Source: Paracoccaceae bacterium
Lineage (GTDB): Bacteria; Pseudomonadota; Alphaproteobacteria; Rhodobacterales; Rhodobacteraceae
Direction of reading: 5' to 3'
Assembly: GCA_016937195.1 (NCBI GenBank)
Contig: JAFGWK010000014.1
Location: forward strand, 1 to 50,077
DNA: 50,077 nt
Shown: piece by piece, positions 17,543 through 48,703 of the stretch
How positions within the stretch are numbered: the first letter of the stretch is position 1
Layout of the letters: every line of letters begins with the position of its first letter
Translations under genes and position numbers: made by a program
The notes under the pieces: model-generated
The model's input: the letters and a program-made list of their open reading frames with translations, nothing else
The model's database searches: none
What the model was told of the DNA's origin: nothing

Positions 17543-17544
17543 CG

Positions 17545-18183: not shown

Positions 18184-18618
18184 TTACACCCCACAAAAAA
18201 TCAACGAAGCGACCGCCCCTAATGATAGAAAAATCGCCACATAAAACCAGCTCACCGACCACGAAAGCGCCAGACGAAGCACTGAAGACGTATCCTTCAT
18301 GAACGGTGTGGCTTCGAGGCTATAGGCTTCGACCTCTTCCCCTTTTCGGACATGCTCGTAGAGCTTCCGATAGGCTCGCTCGAGGCGCAAATATTGTGCA
18401 TCCATGAGCCAGAAAATGATCATCGGCACTATGGCAGCAACCGAATAATATGGCGAAGGTGTTTCCACGGTGGCCATGACGGCAACTGCCGCGCTCCCAA
18501 ACGTCGCAGCAAGAGCTTTGAGAGTAAATGAGTTTGCCCCCATCCTTGTAATGACTCCTTGCAGCATCGTCAGATGCGCAATTCGAATACTCTCATCTTG
18601 GACTTGAGTATCGCCCAT
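18184..18618 (-). CDS. Small multi-pass membrane protein, first gene of the TIR operon
   Basis: HLTMLQGVITRMGANSF..K, FWLMDAQYLRLERAYR.LY; about three hydrophobic segments; stop abuts the TIR start. Confidence 0.75.
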   Translation of the reverse strand: MGDTQVQDESIRIAHLTMLQGVITRMGANSFTLKALAATFGSAAVAVMATVETPSPYYSVAAIVPMIIFWLMDAQYLRLERAYRKLYEHVRKGEEVEAYSLEATPFMKDTSSVLRLALSWSVSWFYVAIFLSLGAVASLIFCGV

Positions 18619-19026: not shown

Positions 19027-20061
19027 TCATGCCTGGCCTCCCACTTTTTCCTGACGGAACTCTGTGCCGTCGATCCACATCCGATGTAAAAGGACGGCCA
19101 GTTTGCGAGCAACCGCGACGACGGCACGGCGGCGGCCTTTGGTGCGCATGAGGCGCATGCCCCATGACTTGATCTGCGATCCGGCCATTGTTCGCATGAG
19201 CAACGCATTTGCGGCAGCGTAGAGCGTCGCTCGGACATTCTGATCACCGGCTTTGGAGATGCGACCTGGGTTGTCGTGTTCGCCGGACTGGTATCGCCTC
19301 GGCGTGAAACCAAAGTGCGCGGCTACTGTGCGAGAACGTTTGAACCGATTGGGGTCATCGACCGCTGCTTTGAATGTCAGAGCAGCGATCGGGCCTACAC
19401 CAGGCACCATCATCATCCGCATGCAGACCTCGTCTTGCGACGCCGCACGCTTCACCCGTCGATCCAGTTCAAGATAATGATGGAACAGGACGGCACGTGC
19501 ATCGAGCAACGGAATGACCGCGTGCGCGAGAACTTCATCCATCTCGATCATGGGCCTCACGAGACCGTCGAAGCTACCGTGCTTGACGGTCCGGGGAAGG
19601 CGAACACCGAATATCTTCAGCAATCCACGCACTTCGTTTGCCAAGTCCATTGTTTTCTTCAGCAAGGCCTTTCTGGTGCTCAGCAGAGCCCGTAGCCCGT
19701 GCGCCTCCCGGCTCTTCATATGCACCGGGCTGAACCAACCCGTCCGCAAAATCTGGGCAATGCCCTTGGCGTCCGTCTTGTCTGTCTTGTTCCGCATCGC
19801 TGAAAGTGCAGCACTGACCTGGCGAGCTTCCATGCACACGATCTCGAAACCCATGTCTTGCAGGCCGAAGAAAAGGTGCTGGCTCAGCGCACCAGCCTCA
19901 AAGCCGATCCGCACGATTGGGGCGCCGAACGTATTCAGGCAGTTGGCGATTTCATCGACCTCACACGGGAGCTCTCGCTCCATGCAAGCCTTGCCACGAC
20001 CGTCCACAATGCAAAGCGCGCAAGACCGAAGTGACACATCCAAACCAACGAAGTATTCCAT
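19027..20061 (-). CDS. IS110 family transposase/recombinase
   Basis: FVGLDVS, GFEAG and KTDKTDA (DEDD RuvC fold); VPGVGPIAA; GFTPRRYQSG (catalytic Ser) and GRISKAGD. Confidence 0.95.
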   Translation of the reverse strand: MEYFVGLDVSLRSCALCIVDGRGKACMERELPCEVDEIANCLNTFGAPIVRIGFEAGALSQHLFFGLQDMGFEIVCMEARQVSAALSAMRNKTDKTDAKGIAQILRTGWFSPVHMKSREAHGLRALLSTRKALLKKTMDLANEVRGLLKIFGVRLPRTVKHGSFDGLVRPMIEMDEVLAHAVIPLLDARAVLFHHYLELDRRVKRAASQDEVCMRMMMVPGVGPIAALTFKAAVDDPNRFKRSRTVAAHFGFTPRRYQSGEHDNPGRISKAGDQNVRATLYAAANALLMRTMAGSQIKSWGMRLMRTKGRRRAVVAVARKLAVLLHRMWIDGTEFRQEKVGGQA

Positions 20062-20309
20062 TTTCTGTCTCCCTATTCTCACAGCAATGCTGAGATCTTA
20101 TCGGGAGATCGACCTTTGAGCAGGGGCAGCCCAATTACGCATGCTTCCCGCCCTCCTGTGCGTCACCCTGTGACACGGTAGCTTCGCTGCAAGCGACGAA
20201 AATAGGCTATCGCGGGCAGTTGTTACTTCCCGCTAAACCGGTAGCAGGCGCTATGGCCCACGCAATTGGTCAACTTTCCAATGTGACGGCCCGCATCATC
20301 AGCGTCATA

Positions 20310-22439: not shown

Positions 22440-23156
22440 TCACAGCTCGAGGCGCATCCGGTGGGAAGGTGAAAAGGACTGTCGGGCGAATGTGATCGGG
22501 GACGCATCCAGCCAAGTCACGCGCAGCATCGTCAAGATCGGATCGTCGGGCGCGCAAATCAAATGTTTGGACCGCGCACCCGCCGTTTCAGCGAGGAATT
22601 CCATCGTCCCATGCGTGTAGGGCGCATGGCGCACGAGCCACACGTTGGGGCTGGTTTTAACAAGATCGACAGCTTCGATTTCAGGAACAGTATCCAGAAC
22701 GATCCAACGGTCCTCAAACATATGCGGCACGTTATCTGCCAGATGCAGGCTCTTGACGTGCAGCACGCGTTCCTTGCCCGCAAGCTTGAGCTTTTCGCGC
22801 ACCGAAGGCGGCGGCGTTTCACCCATTCGCTCCAACAGGCGATATTCATAACGCGCGCCGCTGGCCTCAACCTCGGCGCGGGTCAGCGGGATCGCCAATG
22901 TGGCTTTGCGCCGCGGTGCCTCGCGCACCCGCGTGCCCGCCTTGCGCCGCCGGTCCAGAAACCCCGAGGTCGCCAGATCGCGCAACGCCCGGTTGACGGT
23001 GGCACGCGCGCATCCGAATTCCGTGGCCAGATCGACCTCGTTCGGGATCAGTTCACCGGGGGCGTAATCCTGCGCGCGAATGCGTGCCATCATCGCATCG
23101 CGGATCGACTGCCAACTGACCGAACCGACCGAACTCTCCCCTTTTACCACATTCAC
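22440..23156 (-). CDS. hutC: Histidine utilisation repressor, GntR/UTRA family
   Basis: IPNEVDLATEFGCARATVNRALRDL wHTH plus UTRA domain; coupled to hutF. Confidence 0.85.
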   Translation of the reverse strand: MNVVKGESSVGSVSWQSIRDAMMARIRAQDYAPGELIPNEVDLATEFGCARATVNRALRDLATSGFLDRRRKAGTRVREAPRRKATLAIPLTRAEVEASGARYEYRLLERMGETPPPSVREKLKLAGKERVLHVKSLHLADNVPHMFEDRWIVLDTVPEIEAVDLVKTSPNVWLVRHAPYTHGTMEFLAETAGARSKHLICAPDDPILTMLRVTWLDASPITFARQSFSPSHRMRLEL

Positions 23157-24523
23157 ACCTCATGGCCCAGTCGCTCCATGACCCGCGCATAGGCGGCCAC
23201 GATCGCGTCGCGTTGATTGTGCCACCCATCCTGCACCACATGCCGCCCCGCTGACCAGACATCGCGCACCGCGCGGTCGTCGCGCGCGAAAATCCAGGTA
23301 TCCAGCAGGGTGTCGCCGGCCTTCCCTAGCCCATCCGGCCCCAGATCGTCCAGCGCCAGCAGATCGGCCCAAAGCCCCTGCGCAATCGCGCCACTGGCCC
23401 GACCCGCCGCCTGCGCGCCGCCCTCAACCGCGCCCTGAAACAGCACCCGCCCCGTTGAGCGATCGGGGTCTGCGAGCACGGCGCGGCGGCGATCGCGCAG
23501 CCGTTGCGAATATTCCAGCGTGCGCAGCTCTTCGGTCAGCGAAATGCGGATATTGCTATCCGAGCCGATGCCGAACGCCCCCCCCGCAGCGCGCCAGCGT
23601 GCGCCGTCAAATATCCCGTCGCCCAGGCTGGATTCGGTGATCGGGCACAGTCCGGCAACCGCGCCGGTGGCCGCCAGCGCCTCGGTCTCGGCGGGTAGCA
23701 TCTGCGTGGCATGGATCAGGCACCAGCGCGCATCGACCGGCGCGTTTTCCAGCAGCCATTCTACCGGACGCCGCCCGGTGGCGGCTTTGACCTGATCGAC
23801 TTCGGCCAGTTGCTCGGCCAGATGAATGTGGATCGGTGCGTCGCCCGCAAGCGCAACTGCCGCTTCAAGCCCCGCCGCATCGACCGCGCGCAAACTATGA
23901 GGCGCAATCCCCAGCCCGCTATCGCCCCCGAGCCGCGCGACATGGCTGCGCGCGCCCTCGACAAGACGGGCAAAACGCTCGGGGTCGTTGCCAAAGCGGT
24001 CCTGCCCCGCGATCAGCGCGCGCCGATCCAGCCCGCCATAACTGTAAAGCACGGGCAACAGCGTCAGCCCGATCCCCGTTTGCGCCGCCGCCGCCGCGAT
24101 CCGCCCCGCCATCTCGGCCAGATCACCATAGGGGCGACCGTCAGGCGCGTGATGCAGATAGTGAAACTCGACATTGCAGGCATAGCCCGCCTCAAGCATC
24201 TCCATCTGCACGAAAGCCGCAATCGCCTGAATGTCATCGGGCGTCAGACGGTCGAGAAAGCGATACATCAACTGTCGCCACGTCCAGAAACTGTCCTGCG
24301 GATCGCTACCACGGCGCTCGGACAACCCCGCCATCGCGCGCTGAAAGGCATGGCTGTGCAGATTGGCGGGCGCGGGCAGCAGCATTTGCACGCGTTTCGC
24401 CCCTTCTGGGCAGTCGGCCCCGACGATCACGGCGCCTATTCGTCCGTCCTCATCAAGATCAATTCTTACCGCTTCCACCCAAGAATTCATCACCAGCGCC
24501 CTGTGCGCCCAGATCGTTCGCAT
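23153..24523 (-). CDS. hutF: Formimidoylglutamate deiminase
   Basis: [40 protein letters not shown]. Confidence 0.95.
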
Positions 24524-24551: not shown

Positions 24552-24565
24552 TATGTGCAGACATA
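24552..24565. promoter_or_regulatory. Probable HutC operator between divergent hutF and hutI
   Basis: Palindrome TATGT-GCAG-ACATA resembling HutC TGT-N4-ACA boxes; TTGACA at 24539-24544. Confidence 0.7.
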
Positions 24566-24595: not shown

Positions 24596-25774
24596 ATGAC
24601 CCAAATCACCCTCACCAATGCCACCCTTGTTTCTTGCACCGATGACGCGGATGGCCGCCCCTATAATGGCTGGTTGCGTATCGAAGACGGGCGTATTGCT
24701 GCGATGGGTGCTGGCCCTGCCGAAGGCGAGGATCTGGGCGGTCGTCTGGTGACCCCAGCGCTGATTGATTGCCATACGCATCTGGTTTACGGCGGCAGCC
24801 GCGCGCGCGAATTCGAGAAACGTCTGGAGGGCGCAAGCTACGAAGAAATTGCCCAAAGCGGCGGCGGCATCCTCTCGACGGTGAACGCGACCCGCGCGGC
24901 TAGCGAGGACGAGCTGGTCGCCTCGGCGCTGCCCCGTCTCGATGCGCTGCTGGCTGAGGGCGCGGCGGTGGTCGAGGTCAAATCGGGCTACGGGCTGACG
25001 ATTGCCGACGAGCTCAAGATGCTGCGCGCGGCGCGGCGGCTGGCGCAGATGCGCTCGGTGCGGATCGTGACGACGTGGCTTGCCGCCCATGCGCTGCCCC
25101 CCGAATATACCGGCCGCGCCGAGGCCTATATTGACGAGGTCGTAATCGCCGGTTTGCGCGCTGCCCATGCCGAAGGGCTTGTCGATGCGGTGGACGGTTT
25201 TTGCGAAAACATCGCCTTTTCCGCCGCGCAGATGGCGCGCGTCTTCGATGTCGCTCACGCCCTTGACCTGCCGGTGAAACTTCATGCCGAGCAGCTATCC
25301 CATCAGGGCGGCGCGCAACTCGTCGCCGCGCGCAAGGGGCTTTCGGCCGATCACATCGAATATGCGACCGCTGCGGATGCCAAGGCGCTGGCGGATGCGG
25401 GAAGTGTCGCTGTGTTGCTGCCCGGCGCCTTCTACACCCTGCGCGAAACCCAAATGCCGCCGATTGATGCGTTTCGCGCAGCGGGTTGCACGATGGCGCT
25501 GGCCAGTGATTGCAATCCCGGCACCTCGCCGCTCACCTCGCTGCTGCTGAGCATGAACATGGGGGCCACGCTTTTCCGCCTGACCCCGACCGAGTGTCTG
25601 CGCGGCGTGACCTGCAATGCGGCGCAGGCGCTGGGGCTATCCGATTGCGGTCGCCTAGCGCCGGGCCTGCGCGCCGATCTGGCGGTGTGGAACGTTACCG
25701 ACCCTGCCGAGCTGACCTATCGCATCGGCTTCAACCCTCTTCACAGCCGTTATTTCGGAGGCCGCAAATGCTGA
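24596..25774 (+). CDS. hutI: Imidazolonepropionase
   Basis: [39 protein letters not shown]; true start MTQITL lies inside the longer ORF. Confidence 0.95.
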
Positions 25775-27288
25775 CACTGATCCCCGGCGAGGCAACGCTT
25801 GAGCAACTCGAAACCCTCTGGCGCACGGGCGATGCGGCGCGACTTGATCCGCGCACTGCCCCTGCCATCGCAACTTCTGCGGGGCGCATTGCCGCCGCAG
25901 CCGCGGGCGATGCAGCGGTTTACGGGGTCAATACCGGCTTTGGAAAACTCGCCTCGGTGCGTATCGCGACTGATGACACAGCAACGCTGCAACGCAACCT
26001 GATCCTGTCGCATTGCTGTGGCGTCGGAGAACCGCTGTCAAAGCCGACCACACGGCTGATGATGGCGCTCAAACTGCTCAGCCTCGGGCGCGGAGCGTCG
26101 GGGGTGCGTCCCGAGATCGTTGCGCTGATCGAGGCGATGCTGGAGCGCGGCGTGACGCCGATCGTGCCCGAACAAGGCAGCGTCGGGGCCTCGGGCGATC
26201 TGGCGCCGCTGGCGCATATGGCTGCGGTGATGATCGGTGCGGGCGAGGCCGTTTTCAACGACCAGCGCCTACCCGGCGCAGACGCGCTGGTCGCTGCCGG
26301 GCTTGCCTCGGTGACACTGGGCGCGAAAGAAGGTCTCGCACTTATCAACGGCACGCAATTCTCGACCGCGCTGGCGCTGGCGGGGTTCTTTCGCGCAATG
26401 ACCTGCCTGCGCACCGCCATCGTCACCGGCGCGCTATCCACCGATGCGATCATGGGCTCGACCGCGCCCACGCATCCCGAAATCCACGCCCTGCGCGGCC
26501 ATCGCGGCCAGATCGACGTGGCCGCCGCGATGCGCGCCTTGCTGGAAGGCAGCGCGATCCGCGAAAGCCATCTTGAAGGCGATGCCCGCGTGCAAGACCC
26601 CTATTGCATCCGCTGCCAGCCGCAGGTCTCGGGGGCGGCGCTGGAGCTGTTGCGCTTTGCCGGCCAGACCCTGATCACCGAGGCCAATGCCGTCACCGAC
26701 AACCCGCTTGTGCTATCGGATGGCACCATCGTCTCGGGCGGGAATTTCCATGCCGAACCCGTGGCCTTTGCGGCCGATCAGATCGCGCTGGCCGTGGCCG
26801 AGATTGGCGCGATTGCGCAGCGCCGCGTTGCGCTGATGGTCGATCCAGCGCTCAGCTTTGGTTTGCCGCCGTTCCTGACGCCGCAGCCGGGGCTCAACAG
26901 CGGGCTGATGATTGCCGAGGTCACCACCGCCGCGCTGATGAGCGAGAACAAGCATCTCGCCTCCCCCTGCTCGGTTGACAGCACGCCGACCAGCGCCAAT
27001 CAGGAGGATCATGTCAGCATGGCTGCCCATGGCGCGCGCCGGCTGGGGCTGATGACGCGCAACCTCTCGGTGATCCTGGGCGTCGAGGCGATCTGCGCCG
27101 CGCAGGGCATCGAATTCCGCGCACCACTCACGACCTCGGCCCCGCTTGCGCGGGTGATAGAGGCACTTCGGGCGCATGTCGAAACGATGGGCAATGATCG
27201 CTACCTCGCGCCCGATCTCGAAAAGGCGCAAGCCTTAGTCGAAGACGGGACGCTTGTCTCTGCCGCCGGGTTGGAGATCACGCAATGA
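25768..27288 (+). CDS. hutH: Histidine ammonia-lyase
   Basis: [31 protein letters not shown] (ASG/MIO), [19 protein letters not shown]. Confidence 0.97.
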
Positions 27289-28088
27289 CCGCACCCGCGC
27301 CCGTCGAGATCGAACAAGGCGATAGCCCGGTCATTCTGGGCCTGCCCCATACCGGCACCTGGCTGCCCAAAAGCGTGCGCGCCGCCCTGAACGAACGCGG
27401 GCTCGAATTGGCCGATACCGATTGGAACATCCACCAGCTTTACGCAGCACTGCTACCGGGCGCGACCACCGTGCGCGCCACGTTTCATCGCTATGTGATC
27501 GACGCCAATCGCGGCCCCGAAAACGACAGCCTCTATCCCGGTCAGAACACGACGGGGCTGGTGCCGCTGACCGATTTCGACGGCACTCCGATCTGGAGCG
27601 TTGAACCAGACGCCGCCGAGATCGAAACCCGTCTCGCGCAGTTCCACACCCCCTATCACGCCGCTCTGCGCGCCGAGATTGCGCGGGTGCGCGCGATGCA
27701 CGGCGTAGCGATCCTTTATGACTGCCACTCGATCCGCTCGCATATCCCGTTCCTGTTTGACGGCAAACTGCCCGATTTCAATATCGGCACCGCAAACGGC
27801 ACAAGCTGCGCCCCGCAGATCGAGACCGTAACCGCCGCAATTTGTGCCCGCGCCCAAGGGTTCGATCATATCGTGAACGGGCGCTTCAAGGGCGGCTGGA
27901 CGACGCGCCATTACGGGCAGCCCGAAACCGGCGTTCATGCGATTCAGATGGAGCTGGCGCAATCCACCCATCTCACCGCCGAGGCACCGCCTTGGGAGAT
28001 CAGCGCCGACAAGGCCGCGCGCCTGCGCCCTTATCTGGGCGAAATCCTGCGCACATTGGAAAGCCTTGCTCCGGAGTTGCGCGCATGA
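27285..28088 (+). CDS. hutG: N-formylglutamate deformylase
   Basis: [39 protein letters not shown]. Confidence 0.93.
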
Positions 28089-29278
28089 AACCGCTCGAAG
28101 GTCTGCGCATCCTTGATCTGACCCGCGTGCTGTCGGGGCCGTTCGCCACCGCCTTGCTGGCCGATCTGGGCGCGAAGATCCTCAAACTCGAATCGCCTCA
28201 AGGCGATGATTACCGTCATATCGGCCCGTTCCGCGACGGGGAATCGGCGCTGTTTGCGCTGACAAATCGCGGCAAAAGCTCCGTCGTGATCGACCTCAAG
28301 ACCCCCGAGGGTCAGGCGCTTGCGCGTCAACTCGCAAGCCAATGCGATGTCGTGGTCGAAAATTTCCGCCCCGGCGTTGCGGCCCGGCTGGGACTGGGTG
28401 CAGAGACGTTGCGCGCGGATAATCCGGGCCTTGTCTATTGCTCGATTTCCGGCTTTGGCCAGGAAGGCCCGGCGGCGGGGCTGCCTGCATATGATCTTGT
28501 CGCACAAGCGATGTCCGGCTGGATGGATGCGACGGGCGAAGAGGGCGGCGAACCGCTGAAGGTGGGCGAAGCCCTTGGCGATATCGCGGCGGGGCTTTAT
28601 GCGGTGATCGCAATTCTGGCAGCGCTGATCGGACGGGCGAAAACCGGGTGCGGCGCGGCACTGGATGTCGCAATGCTTGACTGCCTTGTGGCGATGCTGC
28701 CCACTAGCCACGCGATCCACCTTTATTCCGACAGCCCCGTAGCGCGTGTCGGCAACCGCCATCCGCTGTCTACGCCGTTCGGGGCGTTTCGCACCGCTGA
28801 TGGGCACGCGATCATCGCGGTGCTGGGTGCGCGCCAGTTCGAGGCGCTGTGCCGGGTAATCGGCGCGCCCGAAGCCGCTGGCGACCCGCGCTTTGCCAGT
28901 GATGAAAGCCGCACGCAGAATGAACCCGCCCTGCGCGCGCTGATCGAACGCTGGAGCAAGACGCAACCCACGCAAGCCGCCGTTGCCGCGCTGGCCGAGG
29001 CACGCGTGCCGACCGCACCGATCCTGAGCCTCGCCGCGCAACTGGCCTCCGATCACGCCACCAAGCGCGCCTTGGTCAATGACCTGCCCCATCACCGGTT
29101 GGGCAAAACCCCGGTCGTCGGTCAGCCGATCCGCTTTGACGGCAAGGCGCTACTGGCCGAGACCGGCGCGCCCGCGCTTGGCGGCGAGACCCGCGCCATT
29201 TTGCAGGAGGCCGGTTTGAGCAGCGCGCAAATCACGCAGCTCATCGCCGCTGGCGTTATCAAGGATCCAGCATCATGA
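28085..29278 (+). CDS. Class III (CaiB/BaiF/Frc) CoA-transferase
   Basis: LDLTRVLSGPFAT.LLADLGA, NRGKSS, ENFRPG, ISGFGQ; catalytic Asp in ALGDIAAG. Confidence 0.93.
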   Translation: MKPLEGLRILDLTRVLSGPFATALLADLGAKILKLESPQGDDYRHIGPFRDGESALFALTNRGKSSVVIDLKTPEGQALARQLASQCDVVVENFRPGVAARLGLGAETLRADNPGLVYCSISGFGQEGPAAGLPAYDLVAQAMSGWMDATGEEGGEPLKVGEALGDIAAGLYAVIAILAALIGRAKTGCGAALDVAMLDCLVAMLPTSHAIHLYSDSPVARVGNRHPLSTPFGAFRTADGHAIIAVLGARQFEALCRVIGAPEAAGDPRFASDESRTQNEPALRALIERWSKTQPTQAAVAALAEARVPTAPILSLAAQLASDHATKRALVNDLPHHRLGKTPVVGQPIRFDGKALLAETGAPALGGETRAILQEAGLSSAQITQLIAAGVIKDPAS

Positions 29279-30417
29279 GCGATTTTGACCATCTTCTCAG
29301 CCCCGAAGAACGCCAGTTCCTCGACATGCTCGCGCGGTTTTCCAACGAGGTGCTTGTCCCGCAGGCCGGGGCGACCGATGCGTCGGGGGCGTTCGTGCAT
29401 GCCCAACTCGCCGCGCTGGCCGAGACGGGCATGATGGGGGCGAACCTGCCCGAGCGTTGGGGCGGGGCCGATATTTCCGCGCATGCGCTGTTCGAGGCGG
29501 TGGCCTGCATCGCGGGAGGCTGCGGCTCGACCGTCTCGGCGCTGACGGCGCATTATCTGGCCACCGACAGCTTGCTGATTGGGGCTGGCGATGACTTGCG
29601 CGAACGGTTTCTGCCCGCCGCGGCCGAGGGCCGGATGCTGGGCGCGTTCGGGCTGACCGAACCCAATGCCGGCTCTGATCCTGCCGACATGCGCACCAAG
29701 GCCACGCGTGAGGGCGCGGATTGGCGCATCAAGGGCAAGAAATGTTTCATCTCGAATGGCGGCGTGGCGGATTTCATCGTGCTTTACTGCGTCACCGATC
29801 CCGAGGCGGGCCATCGCGGCATCTCGGCTTTCGTGATCGAGAAAGGCACGCCGGGCCTTGTGCCGGGGCGGGTCGAGCAGACGATGGGCCTGCGCGGCGG
29901 TCATGTCTGGGAGCTGGATATCGACGTCGTGGTGCCCGATGCGAACCGCCTTGACGCTGAAGGCACGGGGTTTCGCACCGCGATGAAGGTGCTCGATAAC
30001 GGGCGCGCCGAAGTGGCCGCGATGGCCGTGGGGATCGCGCGCGCCGCGCTCAATGCCGCGCGCGACTGGGCGAAATCGCGCATCATTGGCGGTGAGCCGC
30101 TGTCCAGCCGTCAGGGCATCCAGTGGATGATGGCGGATATGGCGACCGAGCTGTCTGCCGCAGAACTGCTGGGCCATGAGGCTGCGCGCCAACGTCAGGC
30201 CGGGCAGCGTTTCACCACCGCCGCCTCGAAAGCCAAGCTGTTTGCAACCGAGGCCGCCTCGCGCATCGCCGACAATGCGCTGCAAATCCACGGAGGCTAC
30301 GGCTACACGCAGGACTTCCCGCTGGAACGTCACCTTCGCGATCTGCGCATCATGCGCATCTACGAAGGCTCCTCTGAAATTCAACGCAACATCATCGCGG
30401 GCCGCCTGCTCGCCTGA
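29275..30417 (+). CDS. Acyl-CoA dehydrogenase
   Basis: AFGLTEPNAGSD, GKKCFISNG, QIHGGYGY and IYEGSSEIQR (catalytic Glu). Confidence 0.93.
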   Translation: MSDFDHLLSPEERQFLDMLARFSNEVLVPQAGATDASGAFVHAQLAALAETGMMGANLPERWGGADISAHALFEAVACIAGGCGSTVSALTAHYLATDSLLIGAGDDLRERFLPAAAEGRMLGAFGLTEPNAGSDPADMRTKATREGADWRIKGKKCFISNGGVADFIVLYCVTDPEAGHRGISAFVIEKGTPGLVPGRVEQTMGLRGGHVWELDIDVVVPDANRLDAEGTGFRTAMKVLDNGRAEVAAMAVGIARAALNAARDWAKSRIIGGEPLSSRQGIQWMMADMATELSAAELLGHEAARQRQAGQRFTTAASKAKLFATEAASRIADNALQIHGGYGYTQDFPLERHLRDLRIMRIYEGSSEIQRNIIAGRLLA

Positions 30418-30435
30418 CATGCTGAAAGGACCGAT

Positions 30436-32133
30436 TTGATGAACAATCCGCGCCACAATACCCGCGACATTTACCCAGCGACCGGCACCGAGATCACCGC
30501 CAAGAGCTGGCTGACCGAAGCGCCGCTGCGCATGTTGATGAACAACCTGCACCCCGATGTGGCCGAGAACCCGCATGAGCTGGTGGTCTATGGCGGCATC
30601 GGGCGCGCGGCGCGCACCTGGGAAGATTTCGACCTGATCTGCGCATCGCTGCGCAAGCTCGAGGCCGATCAGACGCTTTTGGTGCAATCGGGCAAACCGG
30701 TGGGGATATTTCAGACCCACACCGATGCCCCGCGCGTGTTGATCGCCAATTCCAACCTCGTGCCGCATTGGGCCAATTGGGAACATTTCAACGAGCTCGA
30801 TAAGAAGGGTCTGGCGATGTATGGCCAGATGACGGCGGGCTCGTGGATTTATATCGGTGCGCAGGGCATCGTTCAGGGCACCTATGAGACCTTCGCCGAA
30901 GCCGGTCGCCAGCATTACGATGGTGATCTGAAAGGGCGCTGGATTCTGACCGGCGGGCTTGGCGGTATGGGCGGCGCGCAGCCGCTGGCGGCGGTGATGG
31001 CGGGCGCCTGCTGTCTGGCGGTGGAATGCGACGAGAGCCGCGCCGATTTCCGCATCCGCACCCGCTATTGCGATGAAAAGACTCATTCGCTGGACGAGGC
31101 ACTCGCGATGATCGGGCGCTGGACGGCGGCGGGCGAGGCAAAATCGGTCGCGCTTATCGGCAATGCCGCCGACATCTTCCCCGAGATCCTGCGCCGGATG
31201 CAAGCGGGCGAAGCCCTGCCCAACGGGCGGCCCGACATGGTGACCGACCAGACCTCGGCGCATGATCCCTTCCACGGCTACCTGCCCAAGGGCTGGACCG
31301 TGGCGCAATGGCGCGCCGAGCAGGAGAGCAATCCCGCCGCTGTCGCAAGCGCCGCGCGCGCCTCGATGCGCGATCATGTCGAGGCGATGGTGGGCTTTTG
31401 GAACGCGGGCGTGCCGACGCTCGATTATGGCAATAACATCCGCCAGATGGCGCAAGAAGAAGGGCTGGAAAACGCCTTTGCCTTCCCGGGCTTCGTGCCC
31501 GCCTATATCCGTCCGCTGTTCTGCCGGGGCGTCGGGCCGTTCCGCTGGGCCGCGCTGTCGGGGGATCCCGAAGATATCTACAAGACCGACCAGCGCATGA
31601 AAGAGCTGTTCCCCGAAAACGCGCATCTGCATCGCTGGCTGGATATGGCGCGCGAGCGGATCGCCTTTCAGGGGCTGCCTGCGCGGATCATGTGGATCGG
31701 CCTGAACGAGCGCCACAAGGCGGGTCTGGCGATCAACGAGATGGTGCGCAATGGCGAGTTGAAAGCCCCCGTCGTGATCGGGCGCGATCACCTTGATAGC
31801 GGCTCGGTCGCCTCGCCCAACCGCGAAACCGAGGCGATGAAGGACGGCTCGGACGCGGTATCGGACTGGCCTTTGCTGAACGCGCTGCTCAATACGGCCT
31901 CGGGCGCGACATGGGTATCGCTGCATCACGGCGGCGGCGTTGGCATGGGGTTTTCGCAGCATTCGGGCATGGTGATTTGCTGTGATGGCAGCGAGGACGC
32001 AGATCGCCGTCTTGCCCGTGTGCTGTGGAACGATCCGGCCACCGGCGTCATGCGCCATGCCGATGCGGGCTATGAGATCGCGCGCGATTGCGCCATCGAA
32101 AACGGGCTCGATCTGCCGGGCATCCTGAAATGA
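30436..32133 (+). CDS. hutU: Urocanate hydratase
   Basis: [42 protein letters not shown]. Confidence 0.98.
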
Positions 32134-32681
32134 AGATCCTGAGCCGCCACGATCTGAACGCGCAGCCCTGGAAGAACGGGGGCGGTCTGACCTGGGAGAT
32201 CGCCGCCTTTCCCGAAGGGGCGGGGTTTGAGGATATGGCATGGCGGCTCAGCATGGCCGAGGTCGCACGCGACGGCGCGTTCTCGGCCTTTGCGGGGATC
32301 GACCGCACACTGACGTTGCTCTCGGGCGCAGGCATGGTGCTTGAGTTTGCCCAAGGCAGGTCGATCACGCTCGACACGAACGCCCCGCCCCTGTCCTTTC
32401 CGGGCGAGGCGGCCATTCATGCGCGTTTGTGCGACGGGCCAATCCTTGATCTCAACATCATGACGCGGCGCGGTGTCTGCGCGCATCGGGTCGAGACGCT
32501 CGCGCTGCCTTCGCGCCTGCCGGAAGGCACGATTGCCCTCGTCACGCGCGATCAAGCCGTCGAGATCGGCAATCTCGTCTTGCATCCCGGTGAGGTTCTG
32601 CTTTTTGATCATCCCGAGGAGTTGGAGGAGATCGTCACCCGAGGCCCCGTGCTCGCCATTATGGTGCACGCCCTCGCATAA
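32130..32681 (+). CDS. hutD: HutD family cupin protein
   Basis: [35 protein letters not shown]. Confidence 0.9.
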
Positions 32682-32780: not shown

Positions 32781-33593
32781 ATGACCTTTTCCACAACACT
32801 GAAATCCGCGCTTTTCGGTCTGGGCGCGCTTGCCATGACCGCATCAGGCGCGATGGCAGACGATCTGGCCGACATCAAGTCAGCCGGCAAGATCGTCGCC
32901 GCGACCGAAATGCACTACGCCCCGTTCGACATGCTTGAAAACGGCGAATATGTCGGTTTCGACCGCGACCTGTTTGACGAGATCGCCAAGGAACTGGGCG
33001 TCACGCCAGTCTATCAGGATCTGCCCTGGACCTCGATCCTGCCCGGTCTTGAAGTCAAGAAATTCGACTTCGTGCTGGCACCGGTCACGATGACCGCCGA
33101 GCGTGCTGATCGCTACAGCTTTACCCTGCCGATCGCGGATGCGACCGTGGCCTTTGTGCAGCGCAAAGGTGGCAAGCTGAGCACGCCGGAAGACGCCAAG
33201 GGCATGACCGTGGGCGTGCAGAAAGGCACCGCGCAAGAGAAACAACTCGAGGCCTATGGCGAGAAGATTGGCGGCATCAACGTCAAGGGTTACGGCACCA
33301 CGGATGAAGCCTATGCCGACCTGATGACGGGTCGCCTTGACGCGGTTGCCGGCTCGGCGCCGCTTCTGAACTTCCTCGCCAAGACCCGCCCCGACGATTT
33401 CGCCGTCGTCAACCCGCCCTTCGGCACGCCGACCTATTTCGGCTTTGTCGCGCGCAAGGGCGAGGGCGACACGCTGGTCGCGGCGGTCAATGATGCGCTC
33501 AAAAAGATTGAGGCCGATGGCCGCATGACGGCGATGCAGGAAAAATGGTTCGGCGCCGCAACCGAGCTGCCCATGACCATGCCCCAGATCTAA
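32781..33593 (+). CDS. Polar amino acid ABC transporter substrate-binding protein
   Basis: Signal peptide; YAPFD, GFDRDL, TMTAERA...FT.P (SBP family 3). Confidence 0.9.
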   Translation: MTFSTTLKSALFGLGALAMTASGAMADDLADIKSAGKIVAATEMHYAPFDMLENGEYVGFDRDLFDEIAKELGVTPVYQDLPWTSILPGLEVKKFDFVLAPVTMTAERADRYSFTLPIADATVAFVQRKGGKLSTPEDAKGMTVGVQKGTAQEKQLEAYGEKIGGINVKGYGTTDEAYADLMTGRLDAVAGSAPLLNFLAKTRPDDFAVVNPPFGTPTYFGFVARKGEGDTLVAAVNDALKKIEADGRMTAMQEKWFGAATELPMTMPQI

Positions 33594-33662: not shown

Positions 33663-34310
33663 ATGTTCTCATTCCAGACGATCATTGACAATTTTCCGGT
33701 GCTGCTTGGTGCGGCGCGCTATACGCTGCTGATCTCGGTGCTCGGCTGTATCGAGGGGCTTATCTTAGGCGCGCTGATCTGTGCGGCCGCCCTGTCCCCC
33801 AAGCTCTGGCTGCGCCGGTGCGCGGCGCTTTACGTCAGCTTCTTTCGCGGCGTGCCGCTGCTGATCCAGCTTCTTGCGGCCTATTACCTGCTGCCGGTGA
33901 TCGGGATCAACGTGCCCGCCCTTGTCGCGGCTGTGCTGACCGTGGGGCTATGCGCCGCGGCCTATCTAGCAGAGGTGCTGCGCGGGTCACTGAACGCAAT
34001 CCCGAAAGGTCAGGCCGAGGCCGCCGCCGCGATCGGCATGGCGCCCCGCGATGTCTGGGTGCGCATCCTTCTGCCCCAAGCGCTCAAGATCGGCCTGCCT
34101 GCCATCGTCAACGAGCTGATCTTGCTGGTCAAAGCCAGCTCACTTGTGACCGTGGTCGGCATTGTCGAGATCACGCGGATGAGCCAGTCCATCGCCGCCG
34201 CCACCTACCGCCCGCTCGAAATCTACCTCGCGGCCGCTTTCATCTACCTCGCGATCAACCTCGTGATTGCACAGGCCGGACGCATCCTGGAACGGAGGCT
34301 CACGGTCTGA
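33663..34310 (+). CDS. Amino acid ABC transporter permease
   Basis: FFRGVPLLIQL; AEVLRG..AIPKGQAEAA EAA loop. Confidence 0.9.
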   Translation: MFSFQTIIDNFPVLLGAARYTLLISVLGCIEGLILGALICAAALSPKLWLRRCAALYVSFFRGVPLLIQLLAAYYLLPVIGINVPALVAAVLTVGLCAAAYLAEVLRGSLNAIPKGQAEAAAAIGMAPRDVWVRILLPQALKIGLPAIVNELILLVKASSLVTVVGIVEITRMSQSIAAATYRPLEIYLAAAFIYLAINLVIAQAGRILERRLTV

Positions 34311-34969
34311 TGATGGAGACATTGCACCGCTACGGCCCGGATCTGCTAACCGGGTTCGGCTTTACCCTTCTCAGCTGGGCGCTTGGCACGGTCCTTGGTC
34401 TGGCCCTTGGCTTTGTGATCGAGATCGCACGCCGGTTCGGGCCGCGCGCCCTTGGCTATCCGATCCGTGCCTATGTCGAGTTCATTCGCGGCACACCCTT
34501 TCTTGTGCAGCTTTTTGTGCTCTATTACGGCGGGCCGCTGATCGGGTTGCGCCTGGATGCGTTGCCCGCGGGCATCCTTGGATTAACGATCTATGGCAGC
34601 GCCTATTTCACCGAAATCCTGCGCGCGGGATTTGACGCGGTGCCACTTGGCCAGATCGAGGCCGCGCGCGCCATCGGCTTTCGCAACACCACCATCGTGA
34701 TGCGTATCATGGTGCCGGTAATGATGGTCTCGGCCCTTCCGGCGCTGGTGAATTTCGCGATTATTCTGACGAAGGAAACCGTGATCCTGTCGATGATTAC
34801 CGTTCCCGAAATCATGTTCCAGACCCAGACGATGATGAGCGAGACCTTCGCCTTCGTCACCCCGATCCTGATCCTCGCGCTGTTCTTCTGGGGCTTTATC
34901 GAGACGATCTCGCGCTTCGGGCGCCGTCTAGAACGCCGCTTCACCCATTACCTCATTGATCGGACCTGA
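34310..34969 (+). CDS. Amino acid ABC transporter permease
   Basis: YVEFIRGTPFLVQL; EILRAG..AVPLGQIEAA. Confidence 0.9.
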   Translation: MMETLHRYGPDLLTGFGFTLLSWALGTVLGLALGFVIEIARRFGPRALGYPIRAYVEFIRGTPFLVQLFVLYYGGPLIGLRLDALPAGILGLTIYGSAYFTEILRAGFDAVPLGQIEAARAIGFRNTTIVMRIMVPVMMVSALPALVNFAIILTKETVILSMITVPEIMFQTQTMMSETFAFVTPILILALFFWGFIETISRFGRRLERRFTHYLIDRT

Positions 34970-34972: not shown

Positions 34973-35767
34973 ATGACCAATCAGCAAACCGCACCGGCGT
35001 CTGCCCATCTGCGCAATGTCTGCAAATTCTATGGCCCTTTTCAGGCGCTCAAAGACGTCTCACTCGACATTCCTCCGGGCAAGGTGACCTGCCTGATCGG
35101 CCCCTCGGGGTCGGGAAAATCCACGCTGCTGCGCTGCATCAACGTGCTTGAGATGTATGACAGCGGCGAGGTGCGTATCGACGACCAGCTGATCGGCTAT
35201 GACAGCCCCGGCGGCAAACCCATGGCGCCGCGCCGCTTGCGCGAAATGCGCCGCGAGATCGGGATGGTGTTTCAGCAGTTCAACCTGTGGCCGCATATGA
35301 CCGCCTTGCAAAATGTCACCGAAGGGTTGGAGCGCGTGCGCGGGCTGTCGCGCGCCGAGGCGCAAAGCCGCGCCCGCGAGGCATTGGCGAAGGTCGGGCT
35401 GGCCGATAAGGAGAGCAATCACCCCAGCCACCTGTCGGGCGGGCAGCTGCAGCGCGTGGCAATCGCCCGCGCCATCGCGATGGAGCCGCGCATCATGCTG
35501 TTTGACGAACCGACAAGCGCGCTTGACCCTGAACTGGTCGGTGAGGTGCTGGGCGTGATGAAACAGCTTGCCGCCGAGGGCATGACGATGGTCGTGGTCA
35601 CCCACGAGATGGGATTTGCCGCCCATGTCGCTGACCGGGTGGTGTTCATGGAGCGCGGCGAAATCGTCGCGACCGGCTCGCCCCGCGAGGTGTTCGACGC
35701 CCCCTCCGACCCGCGCCTCGCAAGTTTTCTGCAAGGCTACCGCGAACGCAATTCGCTTGATTTTTGA
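34973..35767 (+). CDS. Amino acid ABC transporter ATP-binding protein
   Basis: [29 protein letters not shown]. Confidence 0.93.
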
Positions 35768-36113: not shown

Positions 36114-36400
36114 GGGCGGTGAGCCGACAGATGCATGTGCGGCAACCCCATGAGAGCTTCGGCGGAAGCGGCCATTGGAACTCGATGCAAGAAGCTGGCG
36201 ACGATACTTGTCCAGATCGAAGCAATCGGCCCTTCGCAAAACACTCAGGTATGGTTCAGCAAGTTCATATCCTGTGCAGGCGCAGCGTGGATCAGACCCA
36301 CATCTCAAATTTGCAGTTGTTTCTGGGCAGCCAAGGCTCGTAGCCTGAGGACAAGTTGCGAAGGCGTCCTGATGATAACCGAAAAGTGGAAAGATTATCG

Positions 36401-38161
36401 ATGAATGACATTGTCTTAGCTAAGGTTAACGCCCCTCGCCCGGCAGACGCAGAATTAGATCGATTTGTGAAGTTCAGGCTTGTTGAACTTACGTTTCACT
36501 ATTCTTTGGATAGCTATAAGGCTCCGGCATTGAACTCTCCGTTCATTGCCCAGGAGCTGTTGGGGCTTATTAAGATCGTTCGCGAAACAGGAAAGGGAAA
36601 AGGAGAAATTCCGCTGGTATTGGAGGAGTTGCGCCATAGATTGAGCTCAGATCCAGTCGCTGCAGTTTTAATAGGAATCTCAATTCAGGGCGTGCTTCCA
36701 GATAATGTTGAAGATTCTCCTGACTTCGAGTCCAGAGTGGGTGCAATTGCCGCCCGCCTCAATCCGCTTGCATATCTTAGCGCGCTAGAGTCTGCCTTGG
36801 ATGATGAGTTAAAATCTCCAAAGCCATCTAAGGAGACAGTAGATCACATCATCTCAAATTTAGTGACAACCAAGATAAATCTTGGGATGTCCAGTAGCTT
36901 CATTCATGCGGTTTCCAAGCGAAGCTTCAATCCCAAAAGCCCCAAGACGACCGCAGAGAAAGCGGCCGAATTTCTAAGTGAGACCGCCCTGCTCCGGTCG
37001 AATTACAAAGTAATTCTGAGGGCGGATATCCGATCGGATGGTGTCAGGCACGATCATTATAACGCCTTCGACATTCAGCTCCCCGACCGCATGCCTGACG
37101 AGTTCAAAGTGAAGCCTAGGCCCGGCAGGGCTGAGGACATGCTTGAAGAAAACGGCACAAAGAAGCTAGTCATAATTGATGGAATTAATGCGACTGATCC
37201 ACATGCCGCAGTTCACAAGTCAATCAAAAAAATGCAACATCTCTTCGACCTTGTTGCGATATTTGACCACAAATCGAACGTGTCTATTGAAGCAAATGCA
37301 AGAGCGCTGAACACTGACGACAACAAGTGTTACCGAGTTCACTCATTGAGAAATCGGATGACATTTATCGATGAGGGGCAGACAAAAAGAACTCTTGGTG
37401 ATCTAGATTCTTTTCTCAGCAACTTGAAGTTTTCAGATCGAAGGGAGTTATCTAAGTTTCTTAGGGCGATCACACTTCATGGCCAGGCGATAACCACATC
37501 CAGCGAAGAGGCCCAACTTCTCAATCTTTGGACCGCAATGGAGATAGTTGGAAGAAATATGAGAAAAACCTCAATTGTTGAGGATGTAGCGGGATCACTG
37601 CTGCCGGTAATTTCTCTTGGATATCCCACCAGAATAGTAGACGCATGGGCGAAGCGGGCAGAGGTCAACTCTAAAGAGTTCGTTGATTTTTGCAAAGAAA
37701 GAAGCGACGTATCTAATTGGAAAATTGCGTTTATCCTGAAAACAATGAAAGAGGAGGATCACAGAGAGGCATGCCGCATATTGAAGAACAGTCCCGCTCT
37801 CCTCTTCCGCGGCTTCACCATCGGGAAACGATTTGGAACCCCAAAGCACCTGCTGGAAGATCTAAGTAGACATGAAAAATTTGTTTGCTGGCAGATACAT
37901 CGAATTTACCGAGCCAGAAATATCATAACACATAGCGGAGCTAGCCCGACCTACTGTGGCGCACTGGTGGATAACGCCCACGACTACCTTGACCAAGTTT
38001 TGACCGAACTGGGGCGGAATCTCTGCTCGGATCGACCATTTGGAACTATATCTGATATGCTTACTTTTGCCGAGGTGCAGCTTTCAACCTGGAGATCTAC
38101 CCTCAAATCCAAGGAGCAATGGGACCAAGCTGGCGGGCTTTTCAGTCCACCAGCTTGGTGA
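36401..38161 (+). CDS. Large low-GC protein with C-terminal HEPN-like domain
   Basis: QLLNLWTAME helix followed by IYRARNIITHSG (RxxxxH), as in ApeA-like HEPN domains. Confidence 0.65.
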   Translation: MNDIVLAKVNAPRPADAELDRFVKFRLVELTFHYSLDSYKAPALNSPFIAQELLGLIKIVRETGKGKGEIPLVLEELRHRLSSDPVAAVLIGISIQGVLPDNVEDSPDFESRVGAIAARLNPLAYLSALESALDDELKSPKPSKETVDHIISNLVTTKINLGMSSSFIHAVSKRSFNPKSPKTTAEKAAEFLSETALLRSNYKVILRADIRSDGVRHDHYNAFDIQLPDRMPDEFKVKPRPGRAEDMLEENGTKKLVIIDGINATDPHAAVHKSIKKMQHLFDLVAIFDHKSNVSIEANARALNTDDNKCYRVHSLRNRMTFIDEGQTKRTLGDLDSFLSNLKFSDRRELSKFLRAITLHGQAITTSSEEAQLLNLWTAMEIVGRNMRKTSIVEDVAGSLLPVISLGYPTRIVDAWAKRAEVNSKEFVDFCKERSDVSNWKIAFILKTMKEEDHREACRILKNSPALLFRGFTIGKRFGTPKHLLEDLSRHEKFVCWQIHRIYRARNIITHSGASPTYCGALVDNAHDYLDQVLTELGRNLCSDRPFGTISDMLTFAEVQLSTWRSTLKSKEQWDQAGGLFSPPAW

Positions 38162-43004: not shown

Positions 43005-43518
43005 GGCGGAAACCAGCCATTCGCTGCAGCAGCGATCTCCCTATCCATCGTCCTAAACTTCGAACCCAGAAACCGCGATGATCTTACTTTTTAGCGTTAG
43101 CAAGACTCAAGTGCAGGCCACCAATCTTGGCATTGCCAAATTTCAAAGCCCTCTACGTCGGCAACGATGGACACATTGCGCGCCTTTCCAATCATTGTTG
43201 GAACAATATTTTGCGTTGTATTGCCACGTGCCATCTCCTCTTTTTCGTCCCGCCTCACGCAGCGGGTGAAGGTGGCGGTGTCAAGGCGGATCGCGACAGC
43301 GCTTGCTGAACCACCGTATGGCGAAGTCCTTTCGTCAACGCGACGGGTAAGCTAGGTTGGGCTAGTCGAATAAACTGGTGGCTGGGAGGGTAAGTTTGCA
43401 AAATGACTAGTAGGAAACGTCCCCGGCCTTTCGGTTCGAAGAAGCCACGCCCAACGATACTAGTTAGATCCCATCTGTGGCAGCGCGGCGTGGATGCGGC
43501 GACGGACGAAATCTCGGT

Positions 43519-48687: not shown

Positions 48688-48703
48688 AAGACGGCCTCCG
48701 ATT

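What the first reader, a model, noticed from the sequence alone, without database searches (positions are those of the whole stretch)
27285..32681. CoA-transferase + acyl-CoA dehydrogenase embedded in the hut operon: candidate imidazole propionate catabolic pathway
Seen: hutG, a class III CoA-transferase and an acyl-CoA dehydrogenase overlap by ATGA-type junctions, and hutU follows 18 bp later, all downstream of the HutC operator. Known: canonical Hut (HutH-U-I-F-G) has no CoA step; class III transferases exchange CoA between related acids; acyl-CoA dehydrogenases make alpha,beta-trans-enoyl-CoAs; urocanate is the enoate of imidazole propionate (dihydrourocanate), which other bacteria produce with UrdA. 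Inference: the transferase forms imidazolepropionyl-CoA, the dehydrogenase oxidises it to urocanyl-CoA, and CoA exchange releases urocanate for HutU, giving an ATP-free cycle. I know of no described CoA-dependent route for degrading this metabolite, which has been linked to human metabolic disease. Alternatives are a methylated or otherwise modified imidazole acid, or the reductive direction.
Basis: partly seen in the sequence, partly recalled or inferred. Interest (0 to 1): 0.85.

Follow-up and report, generated by a model that had tools for sequence, protein, structure and literature searches.

The report
Imidazole propionate breakdown genes beside urocanase
A CoA-transferase gene and an acyl-CoA dehydrogenase gene sit inside this histidine-breakdown operon and beside urocanase genes in many other bacteria, and they likely turn imidazole propionate, a diabetes-linked gut metabolite usually called non-metabolisable, back into urocanate so that the cell can feed on it.

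Summary
Observation confirmed. hutG, a class III CoA-transferase and an acyl-CoA dehydrogenase (ACAD) overlap by ATGA, and hutU follows. The ACAD defines a discrete clade that matches no curated family. In 61 related loci the transferase is adjacent in 59, hutU lies within 1.5 kb in 44 and some hut enzyme gene is present in 53; 0 of 72 generic-ACAD control loci show either. The link recurs in several gene orders across Alpha-, Beta- and Gammaproteobacteria. One complete genome has the pair with hutU-I-G but no histidase. One locus, whose proteins cluster with Providencia proteins, adds ETF and ETF-quinone oxidoreductase, which favours oxidation. Orthologs exist in Comamonas testosteroni, the species of a 1973 paper on imidazolylpropionate degradation (title seen, content recalled). 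Best reading (0.72): imidazole propionate is activated to its CoA ester, oxidised to urocanyl-CoA and released as urocanate for HutU. The substrate is inferred; nothing was assayed. Ten literature searches found no described genes for this step. The module is patchy (19 of 401 family genomes). The scan noted the same module twice before on other genomes; part of one note later fell, which part is not told.

The parts
22440..23141 (-). hutC, histidine utilisation repressor (start approximate)
   Evidence: TIGR02018 236 bits, cut-off 220
23153..24523 (-). hutF, formimidoylglutamate deiminase
   Evidence: TIGR02022 560.9, cut-off 413
24552..24565 (.). palindrome TATGTGCAGACATA, predicted HutC operator
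   Evidence: only TATGT-N4-ACATA in the assembly; conserved in place in relatives; binding not tested, consensus recalled
24596..25774 (+). hutI, imidazolonepropionase
   Evidence: TIGR01224 421, cut-off 298
25768..27288 (+). hutH, histidine ammonia-lyase
   Evidence: TIGR01225 676, cut-off 539
27285..28088 (+). hutG, N-formylglutamate deformylase
   Evidence: TIGR02017 362.5, cut-off 279
28085..29278 (+). class III CoA-transferase (397 aa); predicted imidazole propionate/urocanate CoA-transferase; Asp166 is the predicted catalytic residue
   Evidence: PF02515 412 bits; below every curated equivalog cut-off; D166 invariant in 29 of 29 rows; pair-linked clade, SH 97
29275..30417 (+). acyl-CoA dehydrogenase (380 aa); predicted imidazolepropionyl-CoA dehydrogenase; Glu364 is the predicted catalytic base
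   Evidence: Pfam N, M, C domains; TM 0.93-0.94 to solved ACADs; clade SH 100; below every curated cut-off
30439..32133 (+). hutU, canonical urocanate hydratase, the only copy found in the assembly (91.7% complete)
   Evidence: TIGR01228 930.5; thiourocanate models 665.7 < 880 and 651.8 < 930; single copy
32130..32681 (+). hutD
   Evidence: PF05962 157 bits
32781..35767 (+). polar amino acid ABC transporter: binding protein 32781-33593, permeases 33663-34310 and 34310-34969, ATPase 34973-35767; ligand unknown (histidine or an imidazole acid, inferred)
   Evidence: PF00497, PF00528, PF00005; no curated cut-off reached by the binding protein; kept after hutU or hutD in relatives

Best explanation
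The class III CoA-transferase and acyl-CoA dehydrogenase between hutG and hutU likely form a feeder branch that oxidises imported imidazole propionate to urocanate, which HutU, HutI, HutF and HutG would then carry to glutamate and formate. Shown: gene identities, operon anatomy, intact catalytic residues, the recurring link to hutU, HutC-type boxes and transporters. Inferred steps: (1) uptake by the adjacent transporter; (2) the transferase, through Asp166, moves CoA onto imidazole propionate; (3) the ACAD (Glu364, FAD) removes the alpha and beta hydrogens to give trans-urocanyl-CoA and passes electrons through ETF and ETF-quinone oxidoreductase to the respiratory chain; (4) the same transferase moves CoA off urocanyl-CoA, onto fresh imidazole propionate or via succinate, so no ligase, ATP or thioesterase is needed; (5) urocanate enters HutU and keeps HutC derepressed. 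Many genomes put the pair under its own LysR regulator instead.
For: Pair and hut link: 59, 44 and 53 of 61 family loci have the transferase adjacent, hutU within 1.5 kb, or any hut enzyme gene; 0 of 72 control loci; 0 of 77 generic metagenome ACAD loci have a hut gene. hutU is the constant neighbour while hutH, I, F, G come and go (L017, L106, L127, L133). All 7 tested genomes whose pair is unlinked have hutU elsewhere; 19 of 19 pair-bearing family genomes have hutU against 82 of 151 in a background sample. G1071 (100% complete, 2 contigs) has hutC-hutD-hutU-pair-NCS1-hutG-hutI and no HutH or PF00221 match. In 4 of 5 tested genomes of family f48 the pair sits with a second, canonical hutU (1028-1037 bits) apart from the histidase operon; its NCS1 permease is 76% identical to the permease next to hutU in the main hut cluster of G493. 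L166: hutU-transferase-ACAD-NCS1-etfB-etfA-ETF-QO plus hutC; ETF and ETF-QO are elsewhere in the window's genome. No dehydratase, thiolase, ligase or hydratase recurs near the pair in 33 loci, apart from one enoyl-CoA hydratase in L126 and one in a separate operon in L125; only transporters and regulators recur. Orthologs in Comamonas testosteroni (51% to the window's ACAD), the species in the title of Coote and Hassall 1973. Imidazolepropionate is titled an inducer of hut enzymes (Schlesinger and Magasanik 1965, title only). Chemistry has precedent: MCAD on phenylpropionate (PMC9889317 passages), FldA/AcdA in reverse (PMC13764928 passages), transferase plus ACAD feeding methylsuccinate (PMC12290011 abstract). 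Family-specific polar residues at pocket positions: Ser88 and Thr91 (MCAD Thr96, Glu99) and Glu/Asp246 (63 of 63 against 6 of 200, four of which look like fragments or distant kin of the family).
Against: No enzyme, growth or binding data. The substrate is argued from context alone. The content of the 1973 paper is recalled, and I did not see that strain's genome; the hut context is from G707, whose ACAD is 97% identical to proteins named C. testosteroni. G1071 could import urocanate directly, so lack of hutH does not by itself fix the direction. ETF genes are clustered in only 1 locus, and the Cai/Fix system uses related carriers for reduction (recalled). 8 of 61 loci, and L165, show no hut gene nearby. 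Glu246 co-occurs with an invariant Arg361 and may be a structural salt bridge, not a ligand contact; I had no model coordinates to check. Loci are kin and controls are mostly Streptomyces, so counts are not independent. The module is rare: 19 of 401, 9 of 401, 3 of 251, 17 of 201 and 1 of 350 genomes in five samples.
Confidence: 0.72

Rival explanations
1. Same oxidative chemistry on a modified imidazole acid (N-methyl- or 2-thio-imidazole propionate), giving a modified urocanate.
For: L115 has the pair near a divergent urocanase (575 bits on TIGR01228, 591 on the S-methyl thiourocanate model) and its ACAD has Asp at the catalytic position. Duplicate hutU copies in family f48 could be specialised.
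Against: The window's hutU is canonical, single-copy and below both thiourocanate cut-offs; the duplicate copies score like the main ones; G1071 has one canonical hutU followed by ordinary hutI and hutG.
Confidence: 0.1
2. Reductive direction: urocanate is activated and reduced to imidazole propionate as an electron sink, a UrdA-independent producer route like FldA/AcdA or CaiB/CaiA.
For: ACAD reactions are reversible; the best NCBIfam hit is acryloyl-CoA reductase, though below cut-off (341.8 < 640); some hosts are facultative anaerobes or phototrophs (Rhodovulum, Providencia); ETF and an ETF-QO homolog serve reduction in the Cai/Fix system (recalled).
Against: The genes are in one operon with hutU, which would drain the same urocanate; hosts include Comamonas, Delftia, Cupriavidus and Pseudomonas, aerobic respirers (lifestyle recalled; names); L166 carries a single-chain ETF-QO with the ubiquinone-binding domain; G1071 cannot make urocanate from histidine.
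Confidence: 0.08
3. The pair converts cis-urocanate or imidazole lactate to trans-urocanate through CoA esters.
For: Both are natural imidazole acids one step from trans-urocanate; class III transferases act on aryl-lactates (FldA).
Against: Lactate dehydration needs a dehydratase, and none recurs in 33 loci. Isomerisation has no net electron flow, yet L166 carries ETF and ETF-QO. The ACAD keeps an ordinary dehydrogenase active site.
Confidence: 0.05
4. The pair acts on an unrelated acid or a hut side product (for example 3-sulfinopropionate as UniRef's label says, glutarate, formate or hydantoin propionate) and is only co-regulated.
For: UniRef names several members 3-sulfinopropanoyl-CoA desulfinase; nearest curated transferase model is succinate-glutarate CoA-transferase; 8 of 61 loci lack hut genes nearby.
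Against: Desulfinase model 235.6-260.7 < 600; glutaryl-CoA dehydrogenase 217 < 470; transferase models all below cut-off. The link is to hutU and importers, not to hutG or hutI, in several gene orders.
Confidence: 0.05

Closest known systems
Itaconate CoA-transferase plus methylsuccinyl-CoA dehydrogenase of Cupriavidus necator and Pseudomonas aeruginosa (PMC12290011, abstract seen)
   Same: Accessory transferase plus ACAD in a catabolic cluster that lets the saturated analogue of a pathway acid enter the pathway.
   Different: Dicarboxylate substrate; the enoyl-CoA continues as a CoA ester, whereas HutU acts on free urocanate, so CoA must come off again. Sequence orthology was not tested.
FldA/FldBC/FldI/AcdA of Clostridium sporogenes (PMC13764928 passages)
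   Same: Class III transferase and ACAD interconvert an aryl-acrylate and an aryl-propionate through CoA esters.
   Different: Reductive, anaerobic, for Phe, Tyr and Trp acids, with a dehydratase and activator; no dehydratase recurs here.
CaiB/CaiA with FixABCX of Escherichia coli (recalled; comparison prompted by earlier scan notes)
   Same: Class III transferase, ACAD and, in L166, ETF with a quinone oxidoreductase and a transporter in one cluster.
   Different: Scores far below the CaiB (130.7 < 413) and CaiA (143.6 < 540) cut-offs; carnitine substrate; reductive; includes ligase and dehydratase.
Urocanate reductase UrdA (PMC7921117 passages)
   Same: Same substrate and product pair, if the reading holds.
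   Different: Unrelated flavoprotein acting on the free acid, described as unidirectional reduction to a 'non-metabolizable' product; the pair would be the missing reverse route.
Imidazolylpropionate degradation by Pseudomonas (Comamonas) testosteroni, Coote and Hassall 1973 (title seen in reference lists; content recalled)
   Same: Recalled: growth on imidazolylpropionate through urocanate, needing urocanase and not histidase; C. testosteroni encodes the ACAD ortholog.
   Different: Physiology only; I found no genes or CoA intermediates assigned to it.
Five-step Hut pathway (HutH, U, I, F, G; HutC, HutD)
   Same: All genes present and canonical.
   Different: Has no CoA step; the two extra genes are an accessory entry.

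Membership tests
Class III CoA-transferases (PF02515) | Full-length match over the family cut-off | tested here: met
   412.1 bits, cut-off 23.3, profile 1-366 of 366
Class III CoA-transferases (PF02515) | Catalytic aspartate (Asp169 of formyl-CoA transferase) | tested here: met
   Asp166 invariant in 29 of 29 rows; alignment range 2-205 to 3-208 of Frc is consistent with 169; Asp169 mutant entries among fold hits
Class III CoA-transferases (PF02515) | Interlocked dimer and CoA-transfer activity | not testable with these tools
   Monomer model matches class III structures at E 1e-36 to 1e-23 but TM about 0.5 and rmsd about 22; no assay
Named transferases (succinate-glutarate, formyl-CoA, CoA:oxalate, mesaconate, L-carnitine) | Curated NCBIfam cut-off | tested here: not met
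   323.8 < 750; 255 < 442; 286.6 < 522; 277.6 < 700; 130.7 < 413
Acyl-CoA dehydrogenases | N, middle and C domains and fold | tested here: met
   PF02771, PF02770, PF00441 over cut-off; model pLDDT 88, TM 0.93-0.94 to solved ACADs
Acyl-CoA dehydrogenases | Catalytic glutamate at the MCAD Glu376 position | tested here: met
   Glu364 in YEG; Glu in 62 and Asp in 1 of 63 family rows; offset to MCAD
Acyl-CoA dehydrogenases | FAD binding and electron transfer to ETF | not testable with these tools
   ETF and ETF-QO genes are in the genome and in the L166 operon; no assay
3-sulfinopropanoyl-CoA desulfinase (UniRef label) | NF042439 cut-off 600 | tested here: not met
   235.6 for the window, 252.8-260.7 for three named members
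Acryloyl-CoA reductase AcrC, CaiA, glutaryl-CoA and cyclohexane-carbonyl-CoA dehydrogenases | Curated NCBIfam cut-offs | tested here: not met
   341.8 < 640; 143.6 < 540; 217.3 < 470; 272.9 < 650
Fld/AcdA reductive aryl-lactate system | 2-hydroxyacyl-CoA dehydratase and activator in the cluster | tested here: not met
   None in the window operon; no such family recurs among 537 neighbouring ORFs of 33 loci
Thiourocanate and S-methyl thiourocanate pathways | Specialised hydratase in place of HutU | tested here: not met
   Window hutU 651.8 < 930 and 665.7 < 880, TIGR01228 930.5; L115 copy is divergent and unassigned
Five-step Hut pathway | HutH, HutU, HutI, HutF, HutG, HutC over curated cut-offs | tested here: met
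HutC regulon | HutC binds the operator and is released by an imidazole acid | tested here: inconclusive
   Conserved palindrome in the expected place; binding not testable; consensus recalled

The most novel reading that the evidence does not exclude
This pair is the long-missing imidazole propionate dehydrogenation pathway: an ATP-free, two-enzyme CoA cycle that reverses urocanate reductase, explains the 1973 Comamonas testosteroni phenotype, and is carried with its own ETF chain by gut-associated Providencia, so that the microbial level of a metabolite called non-metabolisable is set by degraders as well as producers.
Probability: 0.6. Interest if true: 0.85.

Novelty: new variant of a known kind. 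Interest (0 to 1): 0.72.

Why it matters
Imidazole propionate is linked to insulin resistance, heart failure and atherosclerosis (reference titles in PMC13764928) and is called non-metabolisable in PMC7921117 and PMC11872695 (passages). A two-gene route that removes it would give genes to an activity reported in 1973, supply a metagenomic marker for degraders (a discrete family: over 575 bits against at most 455 on one profile), offer enzymes for an assay or for lowering the metabolite, and reveal cross-feeding between anaerobic urocanate reducers and respiring neighbours. The test is cheap: two soluble enzymes, a commercial substrate and a product absorbing at 277 nm (wavelength).

Tried and rejected
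UniRef's desulfinase label: below cut-off. Long hits of the representative search as transferase-ACAD fusions: they are tandem ACAD-ACAD proteins of other taxa; fused forms were not searched for separately. PDB 10UH/9ZAV as a characterised ortholog: a Brucella protein at about 40% identity with succinate or zinc. Rhodococcus ACAD P0445 shares four signature positions but falls outside the clade; a search of 201 genomes around G1209 found no match and had no positive control, so its context is unknown. The metagenome scan used generic patterns and gave only 2 family loci of 79. The class-wide sample around G493 gave only G493 itself, 1 of 350, with one genome unscored. A mixture-model tree did not finish; the trees are FastTree with SH-like support only, and the transferase tree has only 6 outgroup rows; L019, L087 and L101 were left out of the ACAD tree as partial or duplicate. 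RNA runs: a relative's contig in RNA run X1 spans transferase-ACAD-hutU (28451-30815), but contigs show no single transcript, strand or level, so it is not counted. A PF04205 search as a proxy for UrdA hit only short frames (159 and 247 aa) in 2 of 4 genomes, a weak negative. The binding protein has no close solved relative. No complex prediction or protein atlas search was run. Papers not held: Coote and Hassall 1973, its companion, Bender 2012, Zhang and Rainey 2007; one id was the wrong paper. PMC11535228 and 10.1101/2022.01.20.477176 passages said nothing on degradation.
Full report
Observation. The window carries a complete hut cluster: hutC and hutF on the minus strand, then hutI, hutH, hutG, two extra genes, hutU, hutD and an ABC transporter on the plus strand. 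The extra genes are a class III CoA-transferase (28085-29278) and an acyl-CoA dehydrogenase, ACAD (29275-30417), joined to hutG and to each other by ATGA overlaps; hutU starts 18 or 21 bp later. A palindrome at 24552-24565 is the only TATGT-N4-ACATA in the assembly and recurs upstream of hutI in 14 of 24 comparable loci. The nearest named relatives are Thioclava and other Paracoccaceae at 94-95%.

The enzymes look intact and match no named family. The transferase keeps Asp166 in 29 of 29 aligned rows and scores below all seven curated models it hits. The ACAD folds like solved ACADs (TM 0.93-0.94), keeps Glu364 at the MCAD Glu376 position (62 Glu, 1 Asp of 63 rows) and is below all curated cut-offs, including the desulfinase whose name UniRef gives it. 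A profile of 20 members separates the family cleanly: full-length members score over 575 bits, other ACADs at most 455. On a FastTree tree 60 family rows and 3 fragments form one clade with SH 100; the 36 partner transferases form one clade with SH 97 against only 6 outgroup rows, and pairwise identities of the two genes correlate (Spearman 0.63, 36 loci; kin share history, so this is no proof of co-evolution).

Context across genomes. Of 61 family loci (the duplicate L101 left out), 59 have the transferase adjacent, 44 have hutU within 1.5 kb of the ACAD and 53 have some hut enzyme gene; of 72 generic-ACAD loci (67 of 10 kb or more, mostly Streptomyces) none has a hut gene or a class III transferase. 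Of 79 metagenome loci, 2 were family members; none of the other 77 had a hut gene. The link appears in several gene orders: hutI-H-G-pair-hutU as here; pair-hutU alone after hutC (L017, L106); a divergent LysR with the pair, beside a hut cluster (L110, L112, L124, L128, L129, L147) or apart (L108, L109, L111, L113, L114, L123, L125); hutU-pair-NCS1 in all 17 members of family f48, with a TGT-N4-ACA box upstream in 12 of the 12 whose upstream DNA was held, against 1 loose hit in 13 LysR-led loci. All 7 tested genomes with an unlinked pair have hutU elsewhere; the eighth, G832, was tested only for histidase, which it has. hutU is in 19 of 19 pair-bearing genomes of the window's family against 82 of 151 in a background draw. 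The module is patchy: 19 of 401 genomes in the own family, 9 of 401 in the phylum, 3 of 251 in f47, 17 of 201 in f48, 1 of 350 in a class-wide draw.

What the context says about substrate and direction. First, hutU is the constant partner, so the product or substrate is most simply urocanate. Second, G1071 (100% complete) has hutC-hutD-hutU-pair-NCS1-hutG-hutI and no match to HutH or to the aromatic amino acid lyase family: the pair stands where the urocanate source would be, though urocanate import could also feed that operon. Third, 4 of 5 tested f48 genomes carry the pair with a second canonical hutU, away from the histidase operon, and the permease is 76% identical to the one beside hutU in the main cluster of G493. 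Fourth, among 537 neighbouring ORFs of 33 loci only transporters (TRAP, ABC, NCS1) and regulators recur broadly; no ligase, thiolase or dehydratase does, and an enoyl-CoA hydratase is seen in two loci, one of them in a separate operon. That argues against beta-oxidation and against an imidazole lactate route, and for an imported substrate. Fifth, L166 reads hutU-transferase-ACAD-NCS1-etfB-etfA-ETF-QO with hutC; its proteins cluster with those named Providencia rettgeri, P. alcalifaciens and kin. A quinone-coupled electron exit fits net oxidation and not isomerisation; it does not exclude reduction, since Cai/Fix runs such carriers the other way (recalled). The window's genome has ETF and ETF-QO elsewhere. 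An ACAD makes a trans-2-enoyl-CoA from the saturated ester (established chemistry); the saturated partner of urocanate is imidazole propionate.

Active site. By ungapped offsets to pig MCAD, Ser88, Thr91, Leu95, Gly243, Glu246 and Val247 correspond to residues 96, 99, 103, 255, 258 and 259, which line the acyl pocket (recalled). Ser88 (61 of 61), Asp/Glu98 (62 of 62), Glu/Asp246 (63 of 63) and Arg361 (63 of 63) are fixed in the family and rare in 200 other ACADs (11, 33, 6 and 14 rows). A polar, acidic pocket would suit an imidazole ring, but Glu246 may simply pair with Arg361. This is suggestive only.

Literature. Ten full-text searches listed no paper on genes or CoA esters for this step; six spellings of the CoA esters gave one irrelevant hit. 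The library lacks most subscription papers, and I opened no supplements. PMC7921117 and PMC11872695 (passages) call imidazole propionate non-metabolisable, and the first calls UrdA unidirectional. PMC13764928 (passages) lists only production. The titles of Coote and Hassall 1973 (degradation of imidazolylpropionate by Pseudomonas testosteroni) and Schlesinger and Magasanik 1965 (imidazolepropionate as non-metabolisable inducer of hut enzymes in Aerobacter) were seen in reference lists; that the 1973 route runs through urocanate and needs urocanase but not histidase is recalled. Proteins named Comamonas testosteroni and Delftia acidovorans are orthologs (97% and 88-89% to the L128 ACAD, 50-52% to the window's), and in G707 the pair lies in one stretch with hutH, hutU, hutI, hutF and hutG. 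Precedents for the chemistry: PMC12290011 (abstract), PMC9889317 (passages). A marine source of the substrate is described in 10.1101/2025.08.13.670108 (passages).

Earlier scan notes. Two notes on other genomes reach the same reading; I had formed mine before seeing them, and they are not independent support. One is marked as partly fallen in a later check, without saying which part.

Verdict. Real, conserved and not assigned in what I could search. It works like the known transferase-plus-ACAD feeder modules and is a member of both enzyme superfamilies, but of no named subfamily. Imidazole propionate oxidation to urocanate is the best reading (0.72); a modified imidazole acid (0.10), reduction (0.08), cis-urocanate or imidazole lactate (0.05) and an unrelated acid (0.05) remain. 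Interest 0.72: familiar chemistry, but it makes a 50-year-old orphan reaction on a disease-linked metabolite directly testable.

Noticed in passing
L115:4182-10581 (G105): The pair lies near a divergent urocanase (575 bits on TIGR01228, below both thiourocanate cut-offs) and an aminotransferase; this ACAD has Asp at the catalytic position. G105 has three urocanases. Possibly a variant for a modified imidazole acid.
   Followed up: partly
L166:4071-14220: hutU-transferase-ACAD-NCS1-etfB-etfA-ETF-QO with convergent hutC and a box at 3759; proteins cluster with those named Providencia spp. No hutH, hutI or hutG in the 15 kb held.
   Followed up: yes
L126:2416-13869 (G471): ACAD and transferase are 6 kb apart, with a HutC-like regulator, an enoyl-CoA hydratase and a TRAP transporter between them, next to hutH and hutU; the hydratase is unexplained.
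   Followed up: partly
window 17030-18618 (-): Three-gene candidate defence cluster: a small protein matching PADLOC PDC-M50A, a TIR protein matching PDC-M50B/ThsB and a second ThsB-like TIR protein.
   Followed up: partly
window 4604-10556 (-) and 19027-20082 (-): Tn7-like tnsB, tniB, tniQ genes and an IS110 transposase; the hut cluster sits among mobile genes. Some relatives are recorded on plasmids (L002 title; P0125, P0154 names).
   Followed up: no
window 11722-13158 (+): ORF with a type VI secretion Tle1-like phospholipase catalytic domain (PF09994).
   Followed up: no
window 36356-38161 (+), 38408-41335 (-), 43477-49921: A 601 aa ORF with no Pfam or PADLOC match; a UvrD helicase with a topoisomerase-type zinc ribbon; pentapeptide-repeat, DUF4238, metallophosphoesterase and AAA genes.
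   Followed up: no
window 27995-30439, run X3 record 18: A contig of a relative joins the hutG region to hutU, skipping 2443 bases with 95 other letters between: a hut operon without the pair, in line with an accessory module.
   Followed up: no
P0445: An ACAD named from Rhodococcus shares Ser88, acidic 98, acidic 246 and Arg361 with the family at 39% identity but falls outside the clade; its context was not obtained.
   Followed up: partly
P0362-P0369, P0373, P0375-P0377: Tandem ACAD-ACAD proteins of 610-800 aa from unrelated bacteria and archaea.
   Followed up: no
L014, L016, L110, L112, L126, L127, L128: Four transporter families (TRAP, NCS1, polar amino acid ABC, SsuA-like ABC) accompany the pair in different lineages; their binding proteins are candidate imidazole propionate sensors.
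   Followed up: partly
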